Part shown: positions 10,487 to 62,777 of the stretch, piece by piece
How positions within the stretch are numbered: position 1 is the first letter of the stretch
Layout of the letters: each line of letters starts with the position of its first letter
Source: a virus
Lineage: Duplodnaviria; Heunggongvirae; Uroviricota; Caudoviricetes
Strand: one strand, 5' to 3'
Virus record (IMG/VR): IMGVR_UViG_3300038968_000013
Location: 49,317 to 113,316 of that record
Length of the DNA: 64,000 nt
Made by a program: the position numbers and the translations under genes
Notes under the pieces: model-generated
Database searches by the model: none
What the model was told of the DNA's origin: nothing
Seen by the model: the letters and a program-made list of their open reading frames with translations, nothing else

Positions 10487-11301
10487 TAGGTGCTGCTACC
10501 TACAATCTGTAGCGTGAACGTGCTCTTGAGCGCGCCCGTGCTATTCGAAAGCGTCTGCTTGATCCACAGACCTGAGGCTTCTCCCGCCGCGAGAACGCCC
10601 GCTGCTGCCACTTCACCAGACACCGCAGGAATCTGTGTTGCGGCATTCGTGGTGATGAAGGTGACGGAGCTTGGGCTAGACGGCGCCGTGAGACGGTTGG
10701 TTGTGGACTGCGCCGAACCGGTCGCAAATCCCCACTCGATTACGGTGTCCGGATCAGCGGTACACGCGATCGTGGCATTCGTAAGCGAGAGGGTTCCGTG
10801 ATTGTTCTTCGCGTAGATCTTTTCGTAACGATCGACAGGGGAGCCGGTGGGAGTCTGCGAGTCGTAGAACAGCACGCGCACGGCACGCTCACCCGCAGCG
10901 ATAGTCGTGAAATCCGGGGTGTCCCCATCATCCCTTATTGTAATCGTTCCCACCGCGTTGGTGAGTGCGGACCCAGATTGAAGGCGAACCTCCGCAAGTA
11001 GGATGCGCTCAAAGACCTTTGCACCTGTGGTAAAGGTGTTGGCGCTTGCTGAGATGTTGATGTCCTCAGTGTCAATAACACCGGTCGCGAGACGTCCAGT
11101 GATACGAACCTTCTTGTCGCCGTCGCTTGTTCCACTCGATGCCACCTCAACGGCGGTTCCCGTAGAACCAGGGATCTGTCCGGTCGAGAAGACTGGACGA
11201 GTCTTGGTTGTCGTTTCGATAGCGCCACCCGACGTTCCGCTGTCGGACGTCGGCATATTCGCGCTGGTGTAAAGTACTAGATCAGTAGCTGCGATACTCA
11301 T
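10486..11301 (-). CDS. Ser/Thr/Gly-rich beta-type structural protein (decoration or fibre candidate)
   Basis: 271 aa, very S/T/G-rich. The start overlaps the upstream stop codon. Confidence 0.4.
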   Translation of the reverse strand: MSIAATDLVLYTSANMPTSDSGTSGGAIETTTKTRPVFSTGQIPGSTGTAVEVASSGTSDGDKKVRITGRLATGVIDTEDINISASANTFTTGAKVFERILLAEVRLQSGSALTNAVGTITIRDDGDTPDFTTIAAGERAVRVLFYDSQTPTGSPVDRYEKIYAKNNHGTLSLTNATIACTADPDTVIEWGFATGSAQSTTNRLTAPSSPSSVTFITTNAATQIPAVSGEVAAAGVLAAGEASGLWIKQTLSNSTGALKSTFTLQIVGSST

Positions 11302-40599: not shown

Positions 40600-40798
40600 G
40601 CGTATTGGTACAGAAATAACGTACTACACGATGTGCGATCGATGCTACGCGGTATTCGCGTTGTCCTTGCTGTAGCACTCGTAGCAGCGCACCGGGTACC
40701 CACACCAACGGTGTGTCAGTGTTCCACACCGACAGCATCGTTTACGGCGGTACCCATAGCGACAGTCTTCGCAGGTTGCTGGATTGTGTTTCATAGAG

Positions 40799-40872
40799 CG
40801 GAACCGAGGGGGATCGAACCCCTAACCTTTCCCGTGACAGGGGAGCGTTCTAGCCAATTGAACTACGGCTCC
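40799..40872 (-). tRNA. tRNA-Asp (GTC)
   Basis: Manual fold. Acceptor GGAGCCG/CGGTTCC, D-arm GTTC..GAAC, anticodon loop CTGTCAC and T-arm AGGGG TTCGATC CCCCT. Confidence 0.6.
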
Positions 40873-40877
40873 GTGAG

Positions 40878-40951
40878 AGTCGATACCCGGATTCGAACCG
40901 GGACCGCTAGTTTGGAAGACTAGCATGCTAACCGTTGAACACTACATCGAC
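40878..40951 (-). tRNA. tRNA-Gly (TCC), probable
   Basis: Manual fold. Acceptor GTCGATG/TATCGAC, anticodon stem CTAGT/ACTAG with loop CTTCCAA, and T-arm CCCGG TTCGAAT CCGGG. The D-stem is weak, and the 5' end overlaps the ORF 40928..41182. Confidence 0.45.
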
Positions 40952-42150: not shown

Positions 42151-42223
42151 TCCTCGAATGTACCATAAAAGCTAGCTGGGTACAATAGGTGGAGAAGGTT
42201 ACTTGTATGCCGGGTTCCCGGTT

Positions 42224-42502
42224 TTACTGCCAGACCGGCTTCGACATGTCGAGGATCTGTCCGAACTGATTGCGACAGTCTGCCAGACATGCCGGGGCCT
42301 TCTCGTGTTTGAACCGGATGATCTTCGCGACCCGTGCCGCCTGTGCCGCCAGCGCCACGCTGTTGGCGCGAGAGCAGAGATCCACCAGATACCGACATTC
42401 CGCTTCCTCGTTCGGAAGCGTCGCCGCCACCGTCTCTGGGTCTGCCTGTGCCGTTGCTGCCGTGAAGAGCACCATTGCTGCCGCGAGTATGATCTGCCTC
42501 AT
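42224..42502 (-). CDS. secreted 92-aa four-Cys protein (paralog A)
   Basis: Signal peptide MRQIILAAAMVLFTAATAQA. Near-identical to 45127..45405. Confidence 0.5.
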   Translation of the reverse strand: MRQIILAAAMVLFTAATAQADPETVAATLPNEEAECRYLVDLCSRANSVALAAQAARVAKIIRFKHEKAPACLADCRNQFGQILDMSKPVWQ

Positions 42503-42867: not shown

Positions 42868-43223
42868 ACCAACACCCACGCCAGGAAGAAGTAGGTCAGC
42901 GCATGAAGGTACTGATCGAACCCCAGCAAGATCCAGAACCACTCGCTATTGTTCGGCAGTAAGCCGTAATGCGCACCAACGTTCATCTTGGCCCAATCGA
43001 TGTGGTAGTGAGCTACCCCGTCGACCACCATCGACAACATAGCGAGCGTCACGCTATCGCAGCACGAGAGCACAACCCAGAACGTTGCCAGCGCATGCAG
43101 CCCCGCGTGGAGAATTCCGCCAGGGTGACCGTACGTACCCTTATTGGTGTACATGTACGGATGCGCCTGCATCGGAAAGTCCACGATGAAATGCTTCGTG
43201 AATAGCCAGAAGAGTAGCGTCAT
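42864..43223 (-). CDS. polytopic membrane protein, His-rich
   Basis: 119 aa with 3-4 hydrophobic helices. Confidence 0.4.
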   Translation of the reverse strand: MTLLFWLFTKHFIVDFPMQAHPYMYTNKGTYGHPGGILHAGLHALATFWVVLSCCDSVTLAMLSMVVDGVAHYHIDWAKMNVGAHYGLLPNNSEWFWILLGFDQYLHALTYFFLAWVLV

Positions 43224-43954
43224 TAGCCCTCCATCCCCATGTCATACCCCGGATGATCCGGAATCAGGCTACCGAGATATGCTCGGTCCTGCGTGAAAAC
43301 CGGAGGACACCCATTTGTTCCCCAACCATGCGACAGGCACTCGCGCCAATACTGCTGCACACGACCGCGACGAAAGCCTTCCGGATGATTGTTCCAGTTG
43401 TCACCCTTCGCGTGAATCATGTCGTGTAGGTCGGGCGACTTCTTCCCGTGCAGTTCCTTGTGCGAGTAGTAGTGCTGCGCCAGCATCTGCAGGGAATTGC
43501 GTTCCGCATCCTGCTGCCGCCAGATGAAGTAGTTCATGACCTCGGTGCGATCTGGGATCACGAACACGCGCGCATCGAAGACAGCCGCCATGTCGACGCC
43601 CCAGCACCGGTTGAACGCGACCGATGCCGTTGCCGCCGCGATCGAGCACATTTTCTGCAGGTTGCCGTCGAACCACGCGTCGGTCTGAATCGAGTCGAAG
43701 TCCGTCAGGAGTAGCGAGATTTCGTCCGACTGCGTGAAGGCGAATTGGGTACCCTGAATGCTTTTGCAGAGCGCCAACGCGGTGACGTCCATCGCGTTCA
43801 TGAAGCCCTTATCGTATGGCTTCTCCATGTGACGAGTCAGCGTGTGAAACGCTTTCCCGTCGACACGGATGACGGTGTAGGTGCGCCGAGGAAGGGAAAT
43901 GCGGTACCGATCTTCGTACTGCTCCTTCATGCGATCACCTAGCGAGTCAGGCAT
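43223..43954 (-). CDS. tRNA-His guanylyltransferase (Thg1-like protein)
   Basis: YEDRYRISLPRRTYTVIRVDGKAFH, EKPYDKGFMNAMDVTALAL and AFTQSDEISLLL align with the Thg1 family blocks (..VVRLDGRGFH.., ..KPNDERALNLMN.., ..YGYSDEYSFVF). Confidence 0.65.
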   Translation of the reverse strand: MPDSLGDRMKEQYEDRYRISLPRRTYTVIRVDGKAFHTLTRHMEKPYDKGFMNAMDVTALALCKSIQGTQFAFTQSDEISLLLTDFDSIQTDAWFDGNLQKMCSIAAATASVAFNRCWGVDMAAVFDARVFVIPDRTEVMNYFIWRQQDAERNSLQMLAQHYYSHKELHGKKSPDLHDMIHAKGDNWNNHPEGFRRGRVQQYWRECLSHGWGTNGCPPVFTQDRAYLGSLIPDHPGYDMGMEG

Positions 43955-44935: not shown

Positions 44936-45126
44936 CGCGTCACACCTCCTTAGTGAATGACTGATGCTTTACTAGCGGTACCAGGGCTTCGTGTCAAGCC
45001 CCTTGATCAATCCGTAGAATCCGCCATCGCCACCGGCCCAACGGAAGATATGTCCCGTGCGTGTGTCGAGCGTATCTCCGCTGTTGAAGTACACCTTCGT
45101 GCCGATGATCATGTAGATGCCGAGGT

Positions 45127-45405
45127 TCACTTCCAGACCGGGGCGTTCATGTCGAGGATCTGGCCGAAGTTATTCCTGCAGTCGGCCAGGCACGCGGGAG
45201 CCTTCTCGTGCTTAAATCGAATAACCTTCGCGACTCGTGCCGCCTGTGCCGCGAGCGCCACCGAATTCGCGCGAGAGCACAGGTCCACCAGAAACTTGCA
45301 CTCTGCTTCCTCGTTCGGAAGTACCGCAGCTACCGTTTCGGGATCTGCATGCGCCTTCGATGCCAAACTGATGGCGAGAGCTACCGCCAGAATGATCTTT
45401 TTCAT
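45127..45405 (-). CDS. secreted 92-aa four-Cys protein (paralog B)
   Basis: Start MKKIILAVALAISLASKAHA inside the track ORF 45127..45621. The mature parts are ~90% identical to paralog A. Confidence 0.5.
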   Translation of the reverse strand: MKKIILAVALAISLASKAHADPETVAAVLPNEEAECKFLVDLCSRANSVALAAQAARVAKVIRFKHEKAPACLADCRNNFGQILDMNAPVWK

Positions 45406-46185: not shown

Positions 46186-46431
46186 TCAGATAACCCGAAG
46201 GTGTTCGCAGAAAACGTACAGATTGTGCTTCACTGACGGGTGGTCCATCTTCACCGTTGCGCATTTCCCGTCGAGAGCAATCACGGTACCGTACTTCGCG
46301 CCGCGCATCCACAGGTCGCAAGCCGGATGCAACTCGATTCGATTCCCTACAGTAACCGTCTTTCCTTGGTAGTCCGTCATAGTCACCCCTCCAGTGCCCA
46401 AATCCATATCGACCTTCTCGGATTCTGTCAA
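46186..46431 (-). CDS. hypothetical protein
   Basis: 81-aa ORF, the last minus-strand gene before the repeat region. Confidence 0.3.
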   Translation of the reverse strand: MTESEKVDMDLGTGGVTMTDYQGKTVTVGNRIELHPACDLWMRGAKYGTVIALDGKCATVKMDHPSVKHNLYVFCEHLRVI

Positions 46432-46439
46432 GCTTTTTC

Positions 46440-47980
46440 TGGATGGATTTCTGATGATTCGTTATTTGTTCAACTTGGTAGCTAACTTAGGCGACTTGCC
46501 AGAGACGCTACTTTGGGCTGGATCAATTTGAAACTGGGTGGGTTATACATATGCGGGACTTTGGGGAGGAGCTATTCAGGGAAACGTGAAATATTATAGC
46601 GCGGGGGTACACTACAGAATAAGCTAACTCATTGATCCGACTGGGAAAACCAAATTGCCCAATGTTTTCGCGGGGTTAGGGGCTGGACAAGATCCGTGCC
46701 AGCCGATTGGCACGGGACTTGCTAGCGATCGTTGGCATGCGGATTATCCCTGCTAGATCGCGGGGTTACGCGCTTCCCCAAAACATGAGGGGTATCGCGG
46801 ACTTAGGGCACCTAATGAAATCAGGTACTTAGCGCCAATGTCCGATAATGTTCTATTATGTCAACTCGCCACTCCAATTAAATCAGGTACTTAGTTAGGC
46901 TCGCCGAATATTATTAGGTCGCGGGGCCGTTACGCCTAACGCGCTTTTCGGCCAGGTGTGGCATAATCCTTGCTAGAACCGACGCGTAAGGCGTTGGCAT
47001 GATTCTTGCAGGGTCGGGGATCGCTAGGGTGGCCCCCCCCTGTATCATTTCGTTACACCCTGTCTCATTTTAACACATATCGACCCATCCCTTAGTGCGT
47101 CATTATGTCGCACCTACCTTAGGCGAAAGTCGCTTCCTTAACAATTCCGGGCACTTACCCGAGCTGGCACGATTCTCGCGTATCTGATTCTTCTTTACTT
47201 TCGCGCACTTAGGTCTGGTATGGTACTAGTGACATAGGCGAAAGTAGGGCAGATTTTGACGGCGTGCGTCATTTTTCGCTAAACTTTCGCTTTTCTGGAC
47301 CATGCGCTAATCGAGCGGAAACCGGCATAGGCAACGCGTCAAGGTCGGTTGATACATTGGCATGGTCTCAGGGTTGCGCGTGTCCTAGGGCAATTGTGGA
47401 CGTTCTAGACCTACGTTCCGAATGACATAGGTTGTTTCGGTTGCTATCTATTAAGGGCGGTTCCCGGTTCGCCCGGTTGGTTCCCGTTCCCGTGGCCTCG
47501 GCGCGGTTGGCCACGGTTCCCGGTTCGCTCATGGTTCCCGGTTGAATTGGCCACGGGTCGCGGTTGGTTTTCTGGGCTAGACGCGCGCCCGCTAGCGTCT
47601 AATCGGGCGCGAATTTTCCCGGTTGGTAGCGGATTATGCGCTAAGTACCCGGAAACATTAGAAAAGAAAAATTACGATTGACGCATTTTTTTTGTTGACA
47701 ACCGCTTGCGGTTTCCTTAGGATCGGTTCCGTTGATAGCGCAACCCCGCATGACGGCGGTTCGCGGATTCCGTAGGGTGCAAGGTTGTTCGCCGTTTCGC
47801 ACGCGGTTCAACGGAACGTGCGTTAAGGTTCGCGGCGCGCTAATCCGTAGGCTTTGACGTCGGAACGTTGCCCGGTTCCGATACCATGCCACATAGGGCG
47901 GAAACATTGGGAACGCGGTTGACCCTCACTGCTAAACCGCGCGGAATTAACCGCGCCGTTTACCTAGGAGGGTTTCACCA
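46440..47980. repeat. 1.5-kb repeat-dense non-coding region (candidate origin / partition / control region)
   Basis: No credible ORF. Direct repeats TTGGCA(C/T)G..TGCTAG x4 (46700-47030), AAATCAGGTACTTAG x2 (46815, 46882), TAGGCGAAAGT x2, and CGGTTCC/GGTTCCCGGTT x>8 (47460-47900). Palindrome CCGTGCCAGCCGATTGGCACGG (46693-46716). Also contains a C8 tract (47035-42) and T8 tracts. Confidence 0.6.
47695..47723 (+). promoter_or_regulatory. sigma70-like promoter TTGACA-N17-TAGGAT preceded by an A/T-rich UP-like tract
   Basis: TTGACA at 47695-700, 17-nt spacer, TAGGAT at 47718-23. It points into the plus-strand module. Confidence 0.45.
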
Positions 47981-48153
47981 TGGCAAAGGTTGTCGGCAAG
48001 GTTGTTTTGCGTAACGGTAAGGTTGCAACGCACGGCGGTTGCGCGTTGCTGCGTCGTTCCCTTTCCGGTCTCACGGTTCGTGTCATGACGTCGCCGAACA
48101 TTCGGCGCGAAACCGTCATGGCGCACGCGTTGCGGTTGGCGGTTGCCCGGTAG
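47980..48153 (+). CDS. small hypothetical protein (57 aa)
   Basis: AGGAGG RBS 8 nt before the ATG at 47980. Translates MAKVVGKVVLRNGKVATHGGC... and is below the track's length cut-off. Confidence 0.3.
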   Translation: MAKVVGKVVLRNGKVATHGGCALLRRSLSGLTVRVMTSPNIRRETVMAHALRLAVAR

Positions 48154-48264
48154 GTAGCAAGTAGGACGCTCGCGCGGTTCGGAGCGTCTTACATGATATC
48201 AACCGGTCAAGGTTGGTTTCCCGTGTCGCATGGTGCGGCATAGTATCTAGGAAAGGTTCGAACA

Positions 48265-49188
48265 ATGGCGCACGAATTGGAAATGAACAACGGCGAAGCT
48301 TCCATGATCTATTCTGGCGAGCTTCCGTGGCATGGTCTCGGTTTTCGGATTCCGCGAAACGTTCCGTGGGAAATTGGTTTCGTGAAATGCGGCGCCGATT
48401 TTCATGTTCAGCGTGCGAAGCTTCAAACGGAAACCGGTTCGCACGTTCCGGGTCATTTCGCGTTGCAACGCACGGATACCGGGCGCGTGCTTTCCGTGGT
48501 CTCGGATCGGTATTCGGTGATTCAAAACGTGGACGCGTTCCGGTTGTTCGGCGAAGCATTCGGAAGCGCGGCGGTTTTGCATACTGCCGGGGTTTTGCGG
48601 CATGGCGCGGAAGTTTGGGGGTTGGCGGAATTGCCGCCCATGGCCATCGTCTCGCGCGAGATTCATCGTCGTTTTTTGCTGGTCACTACTGGCCACGGTT
48701 CGCGCAAAGCGTTGAAAGTGATTCCGACCGCAACGCGCGTCGTTTGCGCGAATACTCTCGCGGTTGCGCTCGGCGGTTCCACGGATGGAATTACCATCCG
48801 GCATTCCGGCGACGTCAACGCGAAGCTTGCCGCCGCTGGCGAAGCGTTGAACGCGGCATATGCCGAATTCAACGCCTATGCCGAAACGGCGGAACGGTTG
48901 GCAAATAAGACGTTGACCAATGGCGAGCGAACCGAATTGCTCGAAACGGTTTTCGGCGACAATTCGGAAGCGATCGACCGTTGCAAATTCCTTGCGGTTC
49001 ACGGCAAGGGTCAACGCGGTTCTGATATCGTCGGGAGCGCATACGCGTTGCTGGCGGGAATCACGGATTACGTAGACCACGAAACCCGTGCGGCGCGTTC
49101 CCGGAACGTCAACCGTCGTTTCGCGGTTGCGACGCTTGGCGCGGGCGCGCGCGTCAAGTCAAAAGCGTTGCAATTGCTCGCGGCGTAG
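48265..49188 (+). CDS. DUF932-like phage/plasmid protein
   Basis: 307 aa. N-terminal MAHELEMNNGEASMIYSGELPWHGLG is typical of the DUF932 family found in ICEs and phages. Confidence 0.5.
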   Translation: MAHELEMNNGEASMIYSGELPWHGLGFRIPRNVPWEIGFVKCGADFHVQRAKLQTETGSHVPGHFALQRTDTGRVLSVVSDRYSVIQNVDAFRLFGEAFGSAAVLHTAGVLRHGAEVWGLAELPPMAIVSREIHRRFLLVTTGHGSRKALKVIPTATRVVCANTLAVALGGSTDGITIRHSGDVNAKLAAAGEALNAAYAEFNAYAETAERLANKTLTNGERTELLETVFGDNSEAIDRCKFLAVHGKGQRGSDIVGSAYALLAGITDYVDHETRAARSRNVNRRFAVATLGAGARVKSKALQLLAA

Positions 49189-49191
49189 TTT

Positions 49192-49266
49192 GAACGCTAG
49201 ACGCGTGCGCTCGCATAGGCGCGCGTCTAGACGTTTGCACTAACGCGAACGGGAAAGGTTTAGACG
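49192..49266 (+). repeat. conserved intergenic cassette, copy b (GC-rich imperfect palindrome + GTTTGC-ACTAAC-GCGAAC hairpin + GGGAAAGG RBS)
   Basis: Shares about 60 bp with copies c and d. It ends 6 nt before the ATG at 49267. Confidence 0.6.
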
Positions 49267-49662
49267 ATGATTCAACGCATGTCGGAACCGGAATTGTTGG
49301 AACGGGCGGCAACCGCCGCACGGTTGGCAATGCGGGCGCGAACCGGAAACGGTTTCGCCTATTTTTTTCGCATGGCGGTTGAAACCGACCGCGAATTACA
49401 GGAACGCGCCGCAACGCGGGCGGTTGTTTCGGCAATGCTCGCAAGCGTTCCGGAAAACAACGCGCGCGCGCTGGCAACGCTCGCGGCATTCGGGCGCGCG
49501 TTCACCATGACGGCGGCAACCGAGACCAACGGCGACAACGGAAGCGACAACGGCGACGGCGGGTCAAAGGTTCGGCGACGAAAACCGCGACCGCAACCGC
49601 CATCGGGAACGCTCGCGGAATTGTTCGCGGCGAAGCTTGCGACCGCGAACGGGAAAGGTTGA
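49267..49662 (+). CDS. hypothetical protein
   Basis: 131-aa, Ala-rich ORF preceded by cassette b. Confidence 0.4.
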   Translation: MIQRMSEPELLERAATAARLAMRARTGNGFAYFFRMAVETDRELQERAATRAVVSAMLASVPENNARALATLAAFGRAFTMTAATETNGDNGSDNGDGGSKVRRRKPRPQPPSGTLAELFAAKLATANGKG

Positions 49663-49665
49663 CCA

Positions 49666-49890
49666 ATGAGCTATACCCTCACGAAACGGCAATTGACAAC
49701 GCTTCGCGCGGGGTTGACCCGCGCTATTGGTTCGGGCGATGCGGCGAAAGTAGCAAAGCAGGTTCGCGGCGCCCGCGTTGTTTTCGACTCGTTCGGCTAT
49801 CCCGATTGTTGGTCAAATTGGCAACGCGCATGGGACGATTTCTGCGCGAATGATGTTCGCTTTTTCGGCGAACCTAACCCGATGCATTAA
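49666..49890 (+). CDS. hypothetical protein
   Basis: 74 aa. Its GCGAACGGGAAAGGTT RBS module is embedded in the 3' coding end of the previous gene. Confidence 0.4.
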   Translation: MSYTLTKRQLTTLRAGLTRAIGSGDAAKVAKQVRGARVVFDSFGYPDCWSNWQRAWDDFCANDVRFFGEPNPMH

Positions 49891-49974
49891 ACGTGAAACC
49901 GCTAGACGTTGCGGAATCCGCGTTTATTGCGTGGTATGCCGCATGGGTTGTCGGCAACCTGCTTTTCTAGTGTC

Positions 49975-50056
49975 AACGTCGGGCGCGTGCGCTAGTCTCG
50001 GCGCGCGTCCTATCGTTTGCACTAAACGCAAACGGGAAAGCGAGACCGAAACGAAT
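49975..50056 (+). repeat. conserved intergenic cassette, copy c (hairpin GTTTGC-ACTAAAC-GCAAAC)
   Basis: Same architecture as cassette b. It precedes the ATG at 50057. Confidence 0.6.
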
Positions 50057-50797
50057 ATGGGAAAACTTTTGACCCTTGGAAGCTGCAACGCAAAAACCGT
50101 GAAAGGCGAAGCATTCGGGGTTTTGACCGGGATTCTTCACCTTGCGCCGGAACGCGCCAGCGGTTTCAATGTTTGCGCCTATGCGGGCGCGTGCGTCGCG
50201 CCATGTCTTAACACTAGCGGGCGCGGTCGACCCGAAACCCCGCTAGGTGAACGGATACAATCGGCGCGGTTGCGTAAGACGGCGCGGTTTTTTTCCGACC
50301 GCGCCGAATTCATGCGAGACCTTGTGCGCGACGTTGCGGCGGTTGAACGCAAAGCGAAACGGCGCGGCATGGTTCCGGCAATTCGGTTAAACGGAACGTC
50401 GGATATTCCATGGGAACGCGTAGCGGTTGGCGCGGCGCCGAATATCATGGCGTTGTTTCCTGACGTGCAATTTTACGATTACACGAAATACCCGGTAGCG
50501 CGGCGGTTGCTGCTTCCGCCGAATTACCATTTGACGCAATCGCTGGACGTTGGCCACAATTCGGAACGCGAAGCGTTGACCGCGCTTTCCATCGGGCGAA
50601 ACGTGGCGGTTGTTTTTCCCGTGGCGCGTTCCGGACCTTTACCCGAAACGTTTACGCTAGGCGCGTCAACGTTCCCGGTAATCAACGGCGACGCTTCCGA
50701 CCTTCGATTTACTGACCCGGTTGGCGTTATCGTGGGGTTGCGTGAGAAAGGTCGGGCGAAGCATGACGCAAGCGGATTCGTGCGGGCGGTTGCCTAA
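50057..50797 (+). CDS. conserved phage hypothetical protein
   Basis: Start MGKLLTLGSCNAKT inside the track ORF 49778..50797 and preceded by cassette c. 247 aa. Confidence 0.45.
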   Translation: MGKLLTLGSCNAKTVKGEAFGVLTGILHLAPERASGFNVCAYAGACVAPCLNTSGRGRPETPLGERIQSARLRKTARFFSDRAEFMRDLVRDVAAVERKAKRRGMVPAIRLNGTSDIPWERVAVGAAPNIMALFPDVQFYDYTKYPVARRLLLPPNYHLTQSLDVGHNSEREALTALSIGRNVAVVFPVARSGPLPETFTLGASTFPVINGDASDLRFTDPVGVIVGLREKGRAKHDASGFVRAVA

Positions 50798-50877
50798 ATG
50801 ACCGACGCAATGCGCGTTGTCTGGAATTGCGTTAAACTTGCCGTTGCGTTGTATCTGCTAGGACGGTTGACCCGGTA

Positions 50878-50955
50878 GCGTAAACGCTAGGCGCGTGCGC
50901 TGGTCTCGGCGTGCGTCTAGACGTTTCCACTAACGGAAACGGGAAAGGTTGCACG
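50878..50955 (+). repeat. conserved intergenic cassette, copy d (hairpin GTTTCC-ACTAAC-GGAAAC, compensatory change)
   Basis: The stem changes G-C to C-G at the same pair relative to copies b and c. It precedes the ATG at 50956. Confidence 0.6.
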
Positions 50956-51722: not shown

Positions 51723-51749
51723 ACCACGGGCGGAACGCTTTGACCCTAA

Positions 51750-51780
51750 CCGGGCGAAGCGTTCCGCCCGGTTTTTTTTT
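51750..51780 (+). terminator. rho-independent terminator
   Basis: CCGGGCG(51750-56) AAGCGTTC CGCCCGG(51765-71), a perfect 7-bp stem, followed by T9. Confidence 0.65.
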
Positions 51781-52277
51781 GCCTACCAACCGCCAACCGC
51801 TAACCGCGCCAACCGCGAAACCCTACCTAGAACGCGCCACGTTGACCGTAGACGCGCGCGCGCCCTATCCCCTACCCTATCCCCTACCCTCGCCGTTGCG
51901 TTGCTCTAATCGAATCCTAGGACGTCGCCTAATAAATCGCGGGTCGCCGCGACCACGCACCTTTCGTGCCAACCTGATTCCCATTATTAAGAATGGGAAT
52001 GTAAATGTAACAATGACAATGTAATTCTTACATGTAGGAATGTAAGTTTTACAACGGGGGGTCGCGCAGGGAGGCAGCGCGGCGCAATAGCCCAAAAATC
52101 GCTTCGAACCGCTGGGAAAAATGACCTCTTTGGACCAACCGCCTAACCCTGTAAACAAACTCAACTTTTCGCAATTTTCGTTTTGAAAGTTTTCGTTTTG
52201 AAATTTCTTCACGAAAAATTTGCGGAATCGTGATATAATTATTGCGAATAATTGAGAGAGGGGGGGGGTGTTTTGAG

Positions 52278-52748
52278 ATGCCTTACCGAACAGCAGAGGA
52301 ACGAAAGCAATACGCGAAGCGTTGGAGAGAGCAGAACCCAGACTACTATAAGCAATGGAGCGAAAGGGTAAAGTTAGGTGAGCGCACGGTTAAGCCACAG
52401 GCGCGTGTGCCTTATTCAGCTAAAGGCAAGAATAAGTGGATTGAGCGGTATCCAGAGAAGTACAGGAAGCAGATGGAAGCCCAACGTGAGCGCAGGCTTG
52501 AGAACAAGAGGAAGCTTGTAGAAATGTTTGGCGGGAAGTGTGAGCTATGCGGGTACGACAAATACCTCGGCGCGCTGGACTTTGATCACATAGATCCAAG
52601 CACTAAGTCATTTAGTATCGGTGGACTTCTCCACGCTAGCCTTGAGAAGTGTGTCGAGGAGGCAAAGAAGTGTCGCCTTCTCTGCGCAAACTGTCACCGT
52701 GAGCACGGAGCCCGTCCGAAGCTGGACAAGTACAACGCTCTACAATAG
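52278..52748 (+). CDS. HNH endonuclease (homing-type), AT-richer than its surroundings
   Basis: GGKCELCGY...DFDHIDP...LLCANCHR. Likely ATG at 52278 (MPYRT); the track shows an upstream TTG start. A G9 tract lies inside the RBS region 52262-70, and a TATAAT box at 52233-38. Confidence 0.6.
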   Translation: MPYRTAEERKQYAKRWREQNPDYYKQWSERVKLGERTVKPQARVPYSAKGKNKWIERYPEKYRKQMEAQRERRLENKRKLVEMFGGKCELCGYDKYLGALDFDHIDPSTKSFSIGGLLHASLEKCVEEAKKCRLLCANCHREHGARPKLDKYNALQ

Positions 52749-59109: not shown

Positions 59110-59246
59110 GCGAGCATGTAGCTTCTTTGAGGAGTGTATTTTTGACGGTTGCTCTACCAACTGAGCTACATTCTTGGTTGCCCTTGAATGGCTGGATTCG
59201 AACCAGCGACCCACTGTGTGTGATAACCCTCAAACGTTCGGCTCGC
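59110..59246 (-). ncRNA. Y RNA-like permuted tRNA mimic, E2
   Basis: Same order as E1. T-arm GCTGG TTCGAAT CCAGC, acceptor halves CATTCAA / AAGAATG (5 of 7 bp) joined by a GGGCAACC loop, and D-arm GCTC AGTTGGTA GAGC. Leader GCGAGC pairs with trailer GCTCGC. Confidence 0.5.
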
Positions 59247-59328
59247 GAAAAATGACCCCGAAGTCATGCTAATTATGCATGAATACTCAGCCTCGATGAG
59301 CATCGGGGAGAGAAGCTGTTTCAAAAAG

Positions 59329-59411
59329 TACCGGTGACAGGATTCGAACCTGCAAGAGTTTCCCCTACTAGTTCCTAAGACTAGCGTGTACGCCAATGCC
59401 ACCTCACCGGC
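59329..59411 (-). tRNA. tRNA-Leu (TAG), class II
   Basis: Manual fold. Acceptor GCCGGTG/CACCGGT, anticodon arm CTAGT CTTAGGA ACTAG, a 13-nt variable arm and T-arm GCAGG TTCGAAT CCTGT. Collinear with E. coli tRNA-Leu. Confidence 0.6.
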
Positions 59412-59421
59412 AAAAAGAAAG

Positions 59422-59531
59422 TGGGTAGGGGTGGAGTTGAACCACCAAGTAAGCTCTCAAGTAGGCATACTCAACTAGTATTTTCAGCCCACCATCCAGC
59501 TATTCTCTGTACAACAAATGTACACCTACCC
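59422..59531 (-). ncRNA. 110-nt tRNA-like RNA (perfect 7-bp acceptor + T-arm, ~35-nt extra internal sequence)
   Basis: 5' GGGTAGG ... GGTGG TTCAACT CCACC CCTACCC A 3'. The D-arm is a 4-6 bp palindrome (G)TGTACA..TGTACA. No canonical anticodon arm could be placed by hand. Confidence 0.35.
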
Positions 59532-59595
59532 ATAGTCTCGGACAACGGATTGCGGTCTCACTGTACCGCGCTTAATCCCCGAGCTTAAAACGGTT

Positions 59596-59650
59596 GGGGC
59601 CAGGCTGGATTCGAACCAGCAGAGAGGGATGGCAAATCCCCCACGAACTG
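59596..59650 (-). ncRNA. tRNA-like 3' module (anticodon-like hairpin GGGGA TTTGCCA TCCCT + T-arm GCTGG TTCGAAT CCAGC + CTGGCCC)
   Basis: No matching 5' acceptor strand either upstream or downstream. It shares a GCTGGCAAAA submotif with E4. Confidence 0.3.
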
Positions 59651-60100
59651 AGCGGATCAAAGCGTGCAAGCTTTTGCCAGCTCAGCGACACTACCCGGTC
59701 TAGACTTCCTCAGCCCGCCGCCATTGCCAACCATGCGACTTACTGACCCCAGAAAACTAACCACGAACATAAAAGTGAAGAGCGAGCTGTCAGCTGGGTA
59801 CCCTTGATCTACTCGTACCGCCCCATTGATGCGAAGGCTTATCAGCTTCGTAGAGGGTATCACCCCAGGTGACTTGTCATCCATCTTACACCCCGGATGC
59901 ATAGGTGTGCTGCCTTCATCGGTGGACCTGACCTTTTCACTACTCAGTTAAACGTTGTTTCGAGGGCGCCTTGTCCGGTCTCCCCCTGGCTTTTTTATCA
60001 AAGTAGAGAACACTCTTCGATTGGCTCGTGGTTCTTGTCCCAGCAATCCTACCCCTCAGTGTGCTAATGAGTCTCAGATCTCAGCCGGGACCAAAACTAT

Positions 60101-60235
60101 ATACCCTGAACGTATGGGCGTCGATGCGGTTTAACGCTCTGCCATTGAGCTAACTCTGCAGGTTAGTGCAGAGCCTGGGACTCGAACCCAGATCTTTCGA
60201 TTATCATTCGAGAACACACCAACAGTCGGCTCAGG
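60101..60235 (-). ncRNA. Y RNA-like permuted tRNA mimic, E3
   Basis: Leader GTTTCACCCTGAGCCGACTGTTG..., T-arm CTGGG TTCGAGT CCCAG, acceptor 3' strand GCTCTGC-A, loop CTAACCT, acceptor 5' strand GCAGAGT, TA, D-arm GCTC AATGGCA GAGC. Head ACCCTGA pairs with tail TCAGGGT. Confidence 0.45.
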
Positions 60236-60284
60236 GTGAAACTTAGATTGTCAAAGAACAAGGTGGAGAACGAGTTACAGAAAG

Positions 60285-60365
60285 CAGGGATTAGTGGGAT
60301 TTGAACCCACATCAGCCGGTTTTTGCCAGCTTCGTCATCCAGTAGCGATAACCCTGCCTAGTTCG
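60285..60365 (-). ncRNA. tRNA-like module E4 (shared leader + T-arm GTGGG TTCAAAT CCCAC)
   Basis: Leader GAGAGCCGAAC matches those of E1-E3. The tRNA-like features are incomplete. Confidence 0.3.
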
Positions 60366-60380
60366 GCTCTCCGGATCTTT

Positions 60381-61043
60381 TTACAGCGCCACTTCGCGTG
60401 GCGTGTGAACTGACGGCATCGTAGCACCGATGGATGGCTTTGTCAAATCCTGATGCTTTGCCATCCAATCCTGCACGAACCAGAGCTGTCCACAGCCGCC
60501 GCCGATGTCGTCCTGTCCCGCAGGATCGAAGCAGCGCACCGAGTACCCGATCGTCTTCATCATGTCCATGAAGTTGGTCGCGAGGGTCCGCTGACGATGA
60601 TTCGCCGCAGCCACGCTCTCGTCCCGCTCACAGATGACGCTGATCGTTGCTTCCCACGTATCCGGGTGAAACAAGCGGCGCAGGTTGTTGACGTCCTGCC
60701 ACGATACGTTACCCGGATGCGCGCAGTAGTTGAAGAACGGGCGGCGCCCGGTGACGTTGTAGAAGCGATTGCCTTGGTACGCGATCTGCGCGAGGTTCAG
60801 CTTTGCCTTGAACGGAATGAGCTGATCGCGCTTCTCGTCGGTGCTCTCATGAACCGAGAATTGCAGCCCGATGGTAGGAATCTTCCGCGCCGCTTCCATG
60901 ATCGGGTCGTAATCGACGTCCGGAGCACTCGTGGAAATGAGCAGCGAGAAGTTCGGGTAGAGGAAGTACAGGTACTCCATCGCCCTGATCAGTTCCTTTT
61001 GGTTGAGCATTTGTTTACACCAATTGTAAGTAAGATAACCCAC
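60381..61043 (-). CDS. hypothetical protein downstream of rsr
   Basis: 220-aa ORF. No motif recognised. Confidence 0.4.
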   Translation of the reverse strand: MGYLTYNWCKQMLNQKELIRAMEYLYFLYPNFSLLISTSAPDVDYDPIMEAARKIPTIGLQFSVHESTDEKRDQLIPFKAKLNLAQIAYQGNRFYNVTGRRPFFNYCAHPGNVSWQDVNNLRRLFHPDTWEATISVICERDESVAAANHRQRTLATNFMDMMKTIGYSVRCFDPAGQDDIGGGCGQLWFVQDWMAKHQDLTKPSIGATMPSVHTPREVAL

Positions 61044-61160
61044 TACCCGGTCGGCTCACCGTATGCCGTTATGTCTGAGACGCGAACATGTAGACGCCTA
61101 GGGCTGTTTTCATTTAGGCAATGGTAACCCTAGAGCTATCGGCTCGCGCGTATCTTGTCG

Positions 61161-62777
61161 TTACAGACCCTTCGCGAACTCCGAGATTAGCTGCGGGGTG
61201 GCAGTGTCGAAGCCCACCACGTCGAGCTGACCCGGATCGTTTGGATCTGCGATGGTGAAGTTGGTCGCAGTCATGCCGACCGTTACCATCTTGCAGTCCT
61301 TCTTGTTCATGCGCGTACGGAACTGGCGCAGAGCAGTGCTCGCGTGCGTGTTCCCGGCCCAAACCTCGTTGTCCGTGATGATCACGAAGCAATCGACGTC
61401 GAGGCTATGCTGCATCGCGTACTTCATTGCGACCGCACCGTCCGTACCACCGAAGTTGGCGTCCTGAGCAGCGCGCGCAGCATCACGGAGCGACATGCCC
61501 GGATGGATACGAAGATCCTTGAAGTGATGCGCGAATCCACCGATGAAATAGTTGCTCTCGGTGTTTGCGATCACGAGCGCCATTGCTGCTGCGCCGATGC
61601 ACGGAGTCAGACCCGGCACGCCCGCGATGCTGCCGCCCGCCATCGAGCCCGAGACGTCGACTCCCAGGAAGAAGTTCTTCCCGGTCGGCTCGACCGCCTT
61701 GAACGCGAGGTAGAACGCCTCGTCGAGGGCCTTGACCACCTTCTGCGAAGGTGTCCAGGTCTTGGACATGTCGCGGGCACCACGCCCCGCCGCGTACGTC
61801 AGGTTCGCAGCCAGGATCTGAATCGGATGCACACGGCCCTTGATGATCGCGTCCTGGTTGCCCAGAAGCTTCACGATGTCCTTCTCGGCCTGCGACAGCG
61901 GCTTCAGCAGTCCGACACGCGTCATGGTCGCCAGGTTGCGGATGACCATGGTGATCCCGCCCGTCGACAGCAGCGCCTCCCAAACCTCTGGAGCGTTCAG
62001 CAGCTGCGTCGGGATGATCTCGCGCGGCAGGTTGAAATCGGTGATCAGCTGCACCGCAGTCTTCACGTCGGCCTTGGTAGCCCCCGTGATTGCCTGCATG
62101 ACACGCGCACCCTCGATCATGTCCGGACCCTTGGTGAAGTCTTCCTTCTTCAGGGCGAACTCGAAGACAGCACGGCGCATAGCATCGTCGGTCTTCGGAT
62201 GCGTCAGACGCAGGAGGTCACGATGCGACCAACCGTCACGCTGCTGGTACTTCACGACCTGCAGTGCCAGCTTGTCGACCGGCTTGGCAAGGTACCAATC
62301 ACGCACCGCGTTCTTCAGCGCACGACCCCAGCCACGATACTGGCGGGCGAAGGCGATGAAATGGAACAGATGCGTTCCAGTACGCGCGACCTTGTGCAGA
62401 TTGGCGAGCGCGTAACGCTTCACGTCGTCGCTACCCTCGGAGGCAGCGTATGCCAGTGCCAGCAGCGCCGGATCGTTCTTCGGCGCGCGACCGTCCTGCG
62501 AAATCTGGACGATCTCGTTGACGAGACGCATGCCATCCTCCAGGAGGCACGCCTTGACGGCGTTCAGGCTCTCCTTGGTGTGCTGGCGCTGGTCAGCGTA
62601 GTACGTCCCACCCTCGGTGCCGAGGATCAGGAAGCGACGCAGATGCATCCAATGCCCGGTGGCAAAAACGTAACCACCCGCATGGTTCTTCACCTGGCGC
62701 GCGTCCAGCGGCTCCGACTCCGGAACCGGCTTCGAAATCTCGTTCAGTAGATAGCTTCCCTTGCGTCCCATCGTCAT
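61161..62777 (-). CDS. rsr: Ro60/Rsr ortholog (TROVE domain + C-terminal vWA/MIDAS domain)
   Basis: GGYVFATGHWMHLRRFLILGTEGGTYYADQRQ...ISQDGRAPKNDPALLALAYAAS aligns with the N-terminus of the Ro sixty-related protein (..RFLILGSEGGTYY..RAPKND). GVDVSGSM is a MIDAS motif. Confidence 0.85.
   Translation of the reverse strand: MTMGRKGSYLLNEISKPVPESEPLDARQVKNHAGGYVFATGHWMHLRRFLILGTEGGTYYADQRQHTKESLNAVKACLLEDGMRLVNEIVQISQDGRAPKNDPALLALAYAASEGSDDVKRYALANLHKVARTGTHLFHFIAFARQYRGWGRALKNAVRDWYLAKPVDKLALQVVKYQQRDGWSHRDLLRLTHPKTDDAMRRAVFEFALKKEDFTKGPDMIEGARVMQAITGATKADVKTAVQLITDFNLPREIIPTQLLNAPEVWEALLSTGGITMVIRNLATMTRVGLLKPLSQAEKDIVKLLGNQDAIIKGRVHPIQILAANLTYAAGRGARDMSKTWTPSQKVVKALDEAFYLAFKAVEPTGKNFFLGVDVSGSMAGGSIAGVPGLTPCIGAAAMALVIANTESNYFIGGFAHHFKDLRIHPGMSLRDAARAAQDANFGGTDGAVAMKYAMQHSLDVDCFVIITDNEVWAGNTHASTALRQFRTRMNKKDCKMVTVGMTATNFTIADPNDPGQLDVVGFDTATPQLISEFAKGL

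What the first reader, a model, noticed from the sequence alone, without database searches (positions are those of the whole stretch)
49192..50955. Conserved ~75-bp cassette upstream of three consecutive plus-strand genes, with a covarying hairpin
Copies at 49192, 49975 and 50878 share a GC-rich imperfect palindrome, then the hairpin GTTTGC-ACTAAC-GCAAAC, then GGGAAAGG and an ATG. In copy d the stem is GTTTCC/GGAAAC, a compensatory G-C to C-G swap. Copy b has a G.U wobble. Covariation argues for a selected RNA or DNA structure sitting just 5' of the RBS, such as a translational operator, an RNase site or a repressor stoperator.
Basis: seen in the sequence. Interest (0 to 1): 0.7.

Follow-up and report, generated by a model that had tools for sequence, protein, structure and literature searches.

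The report
Repeated two-fold RNA cassette between phage genes
Three copies of a ~75-base cassette sit between genes of one phage operon and appear to be a real folded mRNA element. It can switch between two shapes, most likely marks where the long message is cut and stabilised, and also serves as a recombination point for gene swapping.

Summary
Three ~75-nt copies (49186-49258, 49968-50041, 50876-50948) are the only strong matches in the window plus about 10 kb of extra flank.

All lie inside one plus-strand operon of an uncultured tailed phage.

Four related phage lineages keep the element. With the most distant one included, 9 of 19 pairs show compensatory changes and 96.7% of cells pair. 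Mismatches in the close copies are G.U in the sense strand, so this is most likely a sense-strand RNA structure, not a DNA operator.

New finding: the stop-codon segment UAGNNNNAACG pairs with the 5' arm and loop of P2. This extends P1 into a 23-bp rod that excludes P2. The two folds lie within about 2 kcal/mol of each other in all nine copies.

My best guess, untested, is a T7-like RNase III processing site whose products carry P1 as a 3' cap and P2 as a 5' cap. One relative shows a cassette-to-cassette recombination that removed the intervening genes.

No Rfam family matches. I rate it a new variant of a known kind, of moderate interest.

The parts
47695..47723 (+). Sigma-70-type promoter-like site (TTGACA-17-TAGGAT) heading the plus-strand operon that holds all the cassettes.
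   Evidence: Best promoter match in 45-55 kb, 10 of 12 positions. It is conserved in relative L120 as TTGACA-17-TACTAT. No promoter-like site was called inside any cassette.
48151..48264 (+). Divergent 'cassette 0' before the DUF932 gene. It comprises TAG stop 48151-48153, hairpin GTAGGACGCTC/GAGCGTCTTAC (48161-48171 / 48182-48192), small hairpin GTCGCA-TGG-TGCGGC (48226-48240) and SD GGAAAGG (48250-48256). The ATG is at 48265.
   Evidence: Read. Weak model hit of 14.9 bits. The fold is a ~21-bp rod that includes the stop codon. The L120 orthologue shows compensatory and wobble changes: A-U to U-A, G.U to A-U, U.G to C-G.
49186..49258 (+). Cassette a, between DUF932 (stop TAG 49186-49188) and the 131-aa ORF (ATG 49267). 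Rod 5' strand 49186-49196. P1 49197-49208 / 49219-49230. P2 49232-49238 / 49245-49251 with loop 49239-49244. SD 49252-49258.
   Evidence: Model score 95.3 bits. P2 has one U.G wobble.
49623..49658 (+). Partial copy 'b': an 8-bp hairpin GTTCGCGG/CCGCGAAC (49623-49630 / 49643-49650) flush against GGGAAAGG (49651-49658). It lies inside the 3' end of the 131-aa ORF, before ATG 49666.
   Evidence: fourth fold. Weak model hit of 14.5 bits.
49968..50041 (+). Cassette c, before the GP88-family gene (ATG 50057). TAG 49968-49970. P1 49979-49990 / 50001-50012. P2 50014-50020 / 50028-50034 with loop 50021-50027. SD-like GGAAAGC 50035-50041.
   Evidence: Model score 95.6 bits. The minimum-energy fold is the long rod.
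50876..50948 (+). Cassette d, between the conserved 26-aa mini-ORF (50798-50878, stop TAG 50876-50878) and the 83-aa ORF (ATG 50956). P1 50887-50898 / 50909-50920. P2 50922-50928 / 50935-50941 with loop 50929-50934. SD 50942-50948.
   Evidence: Model score 96.5 bits. The P2 stem is GTTTCC/GGAAAC.
51748..51780 (+). Canonical intrinsic terminator (9-bp GC stem followed by a run of T) that ends the plus-strand operon.
   Evidence: Top terminator-like hit. It is conserved in L120, L034 and L035. This shows that real terminators in this phage carry a T-run, which the cassettes lack.

Best explanation
**What it is.** The cassettes are cis-acting structured segments of the sense mRNA of one phage operon. 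The operon runs from a promoter near 47.7 kb to a terminator near 51.8 kb. Each cassette sits between a TAG stop codon and the next gene's Shine-Dalgarno sequence.

**Two folds.** Each cassette can adopt two mutually exclusive folds of nearly equal energy.
- Fold I is a 23-bp imperfect rod. P1 is extended by pairing of UAGNNNNAACG (the stop-codon segment) with CGUUUSCACUA.
- Fold II is P1 plus the small hairpin P2, whose 3' arm abuts the SD.

**Most likely mechanism (inferred, not shown).** The rod is an intercistronic processing site of the T7 early-mRNA type. It has an upper stem, then a bulge or internal loop, then a lower stem, and would be cut by a double-strand-specific RNase such as host RNase III at the junction. 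After the cut, P1 stays as a 3'-terminal hairpin protecting the upstream cistron. The freed CGUUUSC strand refolds into P2, giving the downstream cistron a 5'-terminal hairpin directly in front of an open SD. A ribosome terminating at the UAG would melt the lower stem and push the element into fold II. Cleavage and fold choice could therefore depend on upstream translation.

**Second role.** Because the copies are 67-84% identical, they also act as portable recombination points at which genes are lost, gained or shuffled.

**Confidence.** The 0.4 applies to the full processing mechanism. That this is a selected sense-strand RNA structure I hold at about 0.85.
For: **Shown here**
- All three copies are intercistronic and lie in one transcription unit.
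- P1 and P2 are predicted independently by RNAalifold. They pair in 96.7% of cells, with compensatory pairs 15-48, 17-46 and 55-66 among close copies.
- With the 64%-identity lineage L035 included, 9 of 19 pairs are compensatory. The model found L035 at E=3e-8 without it having been used in training.
- Sense RNA: departures from Watson-Crick pairing in the eight close copies are G.U apart from one C/U position. Sense folds are 5-10 kcal/mol better than antisense in 9 of 10 cases.
- The rod pairs at 9-10 of 11 positions per copy. Only 6e-5 to 2e-3 of 11-mers in the window do as well. It pairs in 89% of cells, with one U.G-to-G-C covarying pair.
- The rod is the minimum-energy fold for 5 of 8 copies when flanking sequence is included.
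- L035 has different P1 and P2 stem sequences but keeps both UAGUGUA/UACACUA and P2.
- The two folds differ by 0.1-2.0 kcal/mol in all nine copies. Blocking the first 15 nt, as a terminating ribosome would, gives the P2 fold in all eight close copies and in L035.
- Recombination: the single L034 cassette is a mosaic of a-type and c-type segments, and the two to three ORFs between them are absent.

**From the literature**
- T7 early polycistronic RNA is cut by RNase III at five intercistronic sites. The model substrate R1.1 is cut at a single phosphodiester (PMC4858673).
Against: - No cleavage data exist and the host is unknown.
- Only four lineages, about eight distinct sequences, are available. 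Several 'compensatory' states could have spread by gene conversion between copies rather than by independent mutation.
- If the rod were only a processing site, an equally stable competitor fold would be unnecessary.
- Cassette 0 has a rod and a P2-like hairpin that do not compete with each other.
- In L034 the d-position cassette is replaced by a single 16-bp hairpin flush against the SD. The two-fold design is therefore not obligatory.
- For L035 the antisense fold is the more stable one.
- The reading frame that closes at the TAG of cassette c has no clear start codon in L120. A terminating ribosome may therefore not exist at that copy.
Confidence: 0.4

Rival explanations
1. Ribosome-toggled coupling switch. 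No cleavage occurs. Termination at the UAG flips the element from rod to P1+P2, and the fold state sets how well the downstream gene is initiated, for example by docking P2 next to the SD on the 30S platform or by blocking or allowing re-initiation. Downstream expression is thereby tied to upstream translation.
For: The stop codon is always inside the rod. The two folds are nearly iso-energetic in nine copies, including a lineage with different stem sequences. Blocking the first 15 nt forces P2. P2 always ends 0-1 nt before the SD.
Against: Computed SD and AUG accessibility does not differ consistently between the two folds. Cassette 0 and L034 d'' lack the competition. Near-equal energies are partly expected because both helices use the same strand.
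Confidence: 0.2
2. Translational operator. A phage or host RNA-binding protein recognises P2 (stem plus ACUAAC loop) next to the SD and represses or activates the three genes together, as T4 RegA or the RNA-phage coat proteins do.
For: P2 abuts the SD. The stem is kept by compensation while the first loop bases, ACU, are constant.
Against: The loop is 6, 7 or 8 nt long and reads ACUGGC in one orthologue. In L035 the loop is CAC and the stem is different. Loop conservation is explained by its pairing with UAGUG in the rod. No candidate binding protein was identified.
Confidence: 0.1
3. DNA-level site. The palindrome is an operator or 'stoperator' for a dimeric DNA-binding protein, or a recombinase or nuclease target.
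For: The cassette is a long imperfect palindrome conserved within a genome and different in a more distant phage. That is the pattern of a phage-specific operator, as argued for the ESAS repeats of cluster K mycobacteriophages (PMC3203893). Recombination does occur at the cassette.
Against: Within one genome the two arms change together (C-G/A-U against U-A/G-C). Arm asymmetries are G.U in the sense strand only, and the antisense strand folds worse. There are only three strong copies, all in one operon and one orientation.
Confidence: 0.07
4. Leaky intrinsic terminators or attenuators that grade transcription along the operon.
For: P1 is a stable GC-rich hairpin. Copy c was listed by the terminator scan, with tail CCTATCGTTT.
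Against: There is no T-run after P1 in a, d, cassette 0 or L035. The T's that follow are the paired 5' arm of P2. Terminators with long T-runs are present at the operon end in all four lineages.
Confidence: 0.05
5. The cassette has no regulatory role. It is a duplicated intergenic spacer that persists and spreads by recombination. Its hairpins serve only as generic 3' barriers or are neutral.
For: The copies are paralogous, are mosaic between lineages, and bound gene indels.
Against: Pairing is maintained by compensatory change across lineages in which the stem sequences have turned over. Two overlapping helices are both kept.
Confidence: 0.1

Closest known systems
RNase III processing sites of the bacteriophage T7 early region (R0.3-R1.3; model substrate R1.1)
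   Same: Both are repeated, related hairpins placed between cistrons of one phage polycistronic mRNA transcribed by host polymerase. Both have an upper stem, an internal loop or bulge, and a lower stem. In T7 the cut leaves a hairpin at the 3' end of the upstream message (PMC4858673, plus textbook knowledge of T7).
   Different: There is no sequence relationship. Cleavage has not been shown here. The lower stem includes the stop codon and competes with a second hairpin (P2) that abuts the SD. The host and its RNases are unknown.
PeSL (promoter-early stem-loop) mobile regulatory cassettes of T4-type phages
   Same: Both are short conserved intergenic cassettes containing a stem-loop, repeated in a region of small variable genes. 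Both act as points of homologous exchange that create indels between close relatives (PMC2839356 and PMC4122927). Here the equivalent evidence is the L034 mosaic cassette with the intervening genes deleted.
   Different: PeSLs are terminator-plus-early-promoter composites. These cassettes contain no promoter-like site and no T-run. They carry a stop codon and an SD instead, so they punctuate translation units rather than transcription units.
SAS/ESAS (start-associated sequences and their extended inverted repeats) of cluster K mycobacteriophages
   Same: Both have a conserved RBS-containing motif a few bases before start codons of non-structural genes, preceded in many cases by an imperfect inverted repeat with a variable spacer. 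The repeat consensus differs between subclusters, and function is unknown (PMC3203893).
   Different: The SAS is 5'-GGGATAGGAGCCC, present in 11-19 copies per genome. The authors state that departures in the ESAS arms do not support RNA pairing and favour a DNA-binding protein. Here departures are compensatory or G.U, there are three copies, and a second hairpin and an alternative fold are present.
Stoperators of cluster A mycobacteriophages (L5)
   Same: Both are short repeated intergenic sites in one orientation relative to transcription (mentioned in PMC3203893).
   Different: Stoperators are 13-bp asymmetric DNA sites bound by the repressor and scattered over the genome. This element is a 75-nt structured unit that shows RNA-type covariation.

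Membership tests
T7-type intercistronic RNase III processing site | Lies between cistrons of a polycistronic phage transcript. | tested here: met
   All copies lie between a stop codon and the next SD, inside one unit bounded by promoter 47695-47723 and terminator 51748-51780.
T7-type intercistronic RNase III processing site | Irregular hairpin of about two helical turns, with upper and lower stems separated by an internal loop or bulge. | tested here: met
   Fold I has 12 bp (P1), then a 1-nt bulge or 2x3 internal loop, then 11 positions with 9-10 paired. It is the minimum-energy fold in 5 of 8 copies with context. This is in silico only.
T7-type intercistronic RNase III processing site | Cleaved by RNase III in vivo or in vitro. 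| not testable with these tools
   No transcript-end or enzymatic data are available for this uncultured phage.
PeSL mobile regulatory cassette (T4-type phages) | Contains an early sigma-70 promoter. | tested here: not met
   The promoter scan of 45-55 kb finds none in or beside the cassettes. A good consensus promoter exists upstream, so the host type is covered by the scan.
PeSL mobile regulatory cassette (T4-type phages) | Conserved stem-loop repeated between small variable ORFs, bounding indels between close relatives. | tested here: met
   Three copies lie among small ORFs. L034 has a mosaic a/c cassette with the intervening genes absent. Gene order differs in L035.
SAS/ESAS of cluster K mycobacteriophages | 13-bp motif GGGATAGGAGCCC 3-7 bp before start codons, in 11-19 copies. 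| tested here: not met
   The motif here is GGGAAAGG, 8 nt (15 nt in copy c) before the ATG. AACGGGAAAG occurs exactly 4 times, all in this operon. It matches the complement of a 16S 3' tail CCUUUC (own knowledge), so it is an ordinary SD.
SAS/ESAS of cluster K mycobacteriophages | Upstream imperfect inverted repeats whose departures do not support RNA pairing. | tested here: not met
   Here departures are compensatory or G.U: 96.7% of cells pair and 9 of 19 pairs have changes on both sides.
Intrinsic (Rho-independent) terminator | GC-rich hairpin followed directly by a run of U. | tested here: not met
   Only copy c is listed, with a weak tail. Copies a, d, cassette 0 and L035 have none. The operon's real terminator has a run of T.
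Any curated RNA family (Rfam 15) | Match at or near the family gathering score. | tested here: not met
   Only three tRNAs are found at gathering score. In 47.4-52.3 kb at E<=5 there are only two chance-level hits.

The most novel reading that the evidence does not exclude
The cassette is a previously undescribed type of intercistronic RNA switch that senses translation termination. The stop codon of the upstream gene is built into one arm of a rod. A terminating ribosome melts that arm and the released strand snaps into a hairpin beside the next gene's SD. Processing, stability or initiation of the downstream cistron is thereby set cistron by cistron according to whether the upstream one is being translated. 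The whole device (stop codon, switch and SD) is portable and moves genes between phages by recombination.
Probability: 0.2. Interest if true: 0.7.

Novelty: new variant of a known kind. Interest (0 to 1): 0.5.

Why it matters
Phage early operons are dense with genes of unknown function, and little is known about how their expression is tuned gene by gene outside T7, T4 and lambda.

This element is a compact, self-contained unit with a stop codon, a bistable structure and an SD. It has covariation support, sits in an uncultured groundwater or soil phage clade, and matches nothing in Rfam.

If the rod is a processing site, the T7 strategy extends to an unrelated phage group. If the fold choice really reads out upstream termination, it would be a new and easily testable mechanism of translational coupling, and a candidate part for synthetic operon design.

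The element also gives a second, promoter-less example of the PeSL idea, in which regulatory cassettes double as recombination joints for modular gene exchange.

Tried and rejected
**Searches for more copies that found nothing**
- Exact-pattern scans for the cassette: viral contigs with two patterns, then metagenome contigs and genome contigs with a third.
- blastn of the operon against INPHARED phages.
- GP88-based locus searches in IMG/VR and metagenomes. They returned 110 loci, all at 53% identity or less over the full protein (one partial match at 56%), and the model finds no cassette in them.

Close relatives came only from protein look-ups in Logan, ENA and JGI assemblies.

**Extending beyond the window**
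- The look-up with the Ro60 ORF failed because no gene with exactly that product is on record.
- Two other look-ups added about 5 kb on each side, with no new copies.
- The remaining ~40 kb of the at least 113-kb genome was not seen.

**Ideas rejected**
- SD-masking switch: the unpaired probability of the SD and AUG does not differ between the folds.
- Promoter inside the cassette: none found.
- Terminator: there is no T-run.
- Programmed read-through stimulated by P1, which lies 8 nt after the UAG: an in-frame TAG follows four codons later in copy a.
- An outer helix pairing the post-stop segment with the SD-AUG spacer, seen in the first folds of a and d: it is not conserved in the L120 and L032 orthologues.
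- Anti-SD pairing of GUUUCC with the SD: possible only in C-type copies, not in GUUUGC copies. It does occur in cassette 0.

**Other DUF932 homologues**
- Those at 40-46% identity (L122-L134) lie in other genomic contexts.
- L131 has its own, unrelated repeated intergenic hairpins. These were not usable for covariation.
Full report
**Context.** The window is part of an uncultured tailed phage.
- It encodes an HK97-type capsid protein, a prohead protease and a portal, three tRNAs, a Ro60 orthologue and a Thg1-like enzyme.
- It has no nucleotide match among 50,697 deposited phages.
- The same sequence occurs in Logan, ENA and JGI assemblies, on contigs up to 113 kb.
- Most genes are on the minus strand. 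The finding lies in a plus-strand block of small non-structural genes: DUF932, a GP88-family protein and several ORFs with no family match.
- The block starts after a consensus sigma-70-type promoter at 47695-47723. It ends at a canonical T-run terminator at 51748-51780.
- Both signals are conserved in relatives.

**The observation.**
- The repeat finder returns a single three-copy, 76-nt family at 49185, 49967 and 50875. The palindrome core has no chance expectation.
- A covariance model built from the copies scores them at 95-96 bits. Nothing else in the 64-kb window exceeds 19 bits, and nothing in about 10 kb of extra flanking genome does either.
- Each copy has the same anatomy:
  - a TAG stop codon;
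  - 4 variable nucleotides, then AACG;
  - a 12-bp GC-rich hairpin, P1;
  - 1-3 nt;
  - a 7-bp hairpin, P2 (CGUUUSC, a 6-8-nt loop, GSRAACG);
  - then immediately GGGAAAGG, with the ATG 8 nt later (15 nt in copy c).
The G.U wobble is in the first copy, not in a 'copy b'.
- A partial copy (P2-like hairpin plus SD) lies at 49623-49658 inside the end of the 131-aa ORF. A divergent fourth cassette precedes DUF932 at 48151-48264.
- GGAAAGGT recurs as the RBS of several genes in this operon. It is complementary to a 16S rRNA 3' tail ending CCUUUC (my own knowledge). It is therefore an SD, not a special motif.

**Relatives.** Pattern scans and locus searches of public viral, metagenome and genome collections found no copies. 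Protein look-ups found three related lineages with the same operon.
- L120, L032 and L033: GP88 90% identical, DUF932 92% identical.
- L034: GP88 85% identical.
- L035-L039: GP88 64% identical, from Hainich groundwater.
- The first two lineages carry cassettes at the orthologous positions.
- L035 has one cassette the model recognises at E=3e-8, although it was not used in training. It has the same TAG-GUGUAAACG start, but different P1 and P2 stem sequences.

**Is the structure selected?**
- RNAalifold on seven copies predicts P1 and P2 without guidance.
- On eight close copies, 96.7% of cells pair. Three pairs change on both sides (C-G/U-A, A-U/G-C, G-C/C-G) and four others vary only through G.U. 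Sliding the partner columns drops pairing to 25-59%.
- With L035 added, 9 of 19 pairs carry changes on both sides. This alignment is model-fitted, so it leans towards the structure.
- Imperfections in the eight close copies are G.U in the sense strand, apart from one C/U position. Sense folds are 5-10 kcal/mol more stable than antisense folds in 9 of 10 elements. L035 is the exception.
- Folds are 2.5-5 sd below dinucleotide shuffles.
- Caveat: there are only about eight distinct sequences from four lineages. The copies exchange segments, so the number of independent compensatory events is small. A formal R-scape-type test would be underpowered.

**A second, competing helix.**
- When flanking sequence is included, the minimum-energy fold of 5 of 8 copies is a long rod rather than P1+P2.
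- In the rod, UAGNNNNAACG (the stop codon and the next 8 nt) pairs with CGUUUSCACUA (the 5' arm and first loop bases of P2). This extends P1 across a 1-nt bulge or 2x3 internal loop to 23 bp.
- The extension pairs at 9-10 of 11 positions per copy, a level reached by only 6e-5 to 2e-3 of 11-mers in the window. It pairs in 89% of cells.
- The S position that covaries in P2 also covaries here: U.G with GUUUGC and G-C with GUUUCC. Copies d and d' are mismatched at that position.
- L035 keeps a perfect UAGUGUA/UACACUA helix overlapping its own, different P2. This explains why the P2 loop sequence (CACUA) is conserved.
- The two folds are within 0.1-2.0 kcal/mol of each other in all nine copies. Making the first 15 nt unavailable, as under a terminating ribosome, yields the P2 fold in every copy.
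- SD and AUG accessibility is not systematically different between the folds. The element is therefore not a simple SD-masking switch.
- Cassette 0 forms a ~21-bp rod including its stop codon, with a separate P2-like hairpin. Its SD can pair with an upstream UUUCC.
- In L034, the d-position element is a single 16-bp hairpin flush against the SD.

**Mobility.**
- In L034, DUF932 is followed by one cassette and then GP88.
- Column by column, that cassette matches the a-type copy at its 5' end and P2 5' arm. It matches the c-type copy in the P1 top, the loop and everything after the SD. The genes in between are absent.
- L120 has extra genes inserted nearby. L035 has a different gene order.
- The cassettes thus behave as recombination joints, as described for PeSLs in T4-type phages (PMC2839356, PMC4122927). 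Unlike PeSLs, they carry no promoter.

**Mechanism.**
- Shown: an intercistronic, sense-strand RNA element with two conserved, mutually exclusive folds, restricted to one operon and one small phage clade.
- Inferred: the rod has the upper-stem, internal-loop, lower-stem layout of T7 early RNase III sites. T7's polycistronic early RNA is cut at five intercistronic sites (PMC4858673).
- A cut at the P1/lower-stem junction would leave P1 as a 3' cap on the upstream cistron. The downstream strand would then refold into P2, giving a 5'-terminal hairpin next to an open SD. I put this at about 0.4.
- The alternative is a cleavage-free switch toggled by the terminating ribosome (about 0.2). It is the more novel reading and is not excluded.
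- A protein-bound translational operator, a DNA operator or stoperator, a leaky terminator, and a functionless recombination scar are each less likely, for the reasons listed with the rivals.

**Comparison and verdict.**
- No Rfam family matches.
- The closest described things are T7 RNase III sites (same position and shape; cleavage untested here) and PeSLs (same evolutionary behaviour; the promoter criterion is not met).
- SAS/ESAS are also close (same placement before start codons). However, their authors found that the repeats do not support RNA pairing, whereas these do (PMC3203893).
- I rate the element a new variant of a known kind, namely repeated intercistronic regulatory hairpin cassettes of phage operons. 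The bistable design that includes the stop codon is its distinctive and testable feature.
- Interest is moderate at 0.5. The structure is well supported for so few sequences, but the function is inferred.

Noticed in passing
window 59170-62777 (minus strand): A Ro60 orthologue (TROVE + Ro60 vWA domains, 61161-62777) lies next to tRNA-Leu(tag) at 59328-59411. Three copies of an intergenic motif GAGCCGAAC..AGGGTTAYC are nearby (59221, 60346, 61122). One copy runs into a tRNA-like T-arm (GGTTCGAATCC). These could be YrlA-type Y RNAs partnered with the phage Ro60. There is no Rfam hit at gathering score.
   Followed up: partly
window 51983-52221; L120 9495-9740; L035 11760-11900: An AT-rich array of AATGTAA-type repeats and a TTTTCGTTTTGAAA palindrome lie just after the operon terminator and before an HNH endonuclease gene (52242-52748). 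The array is conserved in L120 and replaced by TGTACG-type repeats in L035. It looks like an origin or operator array.
   Followed up: no
window 46400-47700: A 1.3-kb stretch has no convincing ORF and is dense in short repeats. These include GGTTCCCGGTT three times at 47507-47565, and a CTAGACGCGCG-started hairpin with an AATTTT tail at 47577-47618. It lies upstream of the operon promoter and is conserved in L120.
   Followed up: no
window 50798-50878; L120 8353-8433; L034 ~958-1038; L035 ~10720-10805: A conserved 26-28-aa hydrophobic mini-ORF overlaps or immediately follows the stop of the GP88 gene in all four lineages (for example MTDAMRVVWNCVKLAVALYLLGRLTR). It is probably a real small membrane protein. 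A second short frame before cassette c (49893-49970) is conserved at the nucleotide level but lacks a clear start codon in L120.
   Followed up: partly
L120 5758-7092: A ~1.25-kb insertion of several small genes, with different RBS style and no cassette, is bounded by an 84-nt direct repeat (89% identical) of the 3' end of the 131-aa gene. This is a second kind of recombination joint in the same operon.
   Followed up: no
L131 3346-3440, 3913-3981, 6934-6988: A more distant integrase-bearing phage (DUF932 41% identical) has its own pair of repeated intergenic elements. Each is GACCGTTGCGGGTTCCGCC plus a hairpin with compensatory differences, one carrying a UUCG loop. It also has a 10-bp GC hairpin 3 nt before an SD. 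Hairpins abutting the SD may therefore be a wider habit of these operons.
   Followed up: partly
window 42223-42461 and 45126-45364: A 239-nt direct repeat, 78% identical and 2.9 kb apart, lies in the minus-strand block near the Thg1-like gene (43223-43954) and tRNA-Asp/Gly (40798-40951). Each repeat is followed by a similar RBS region.
   Followed up: no
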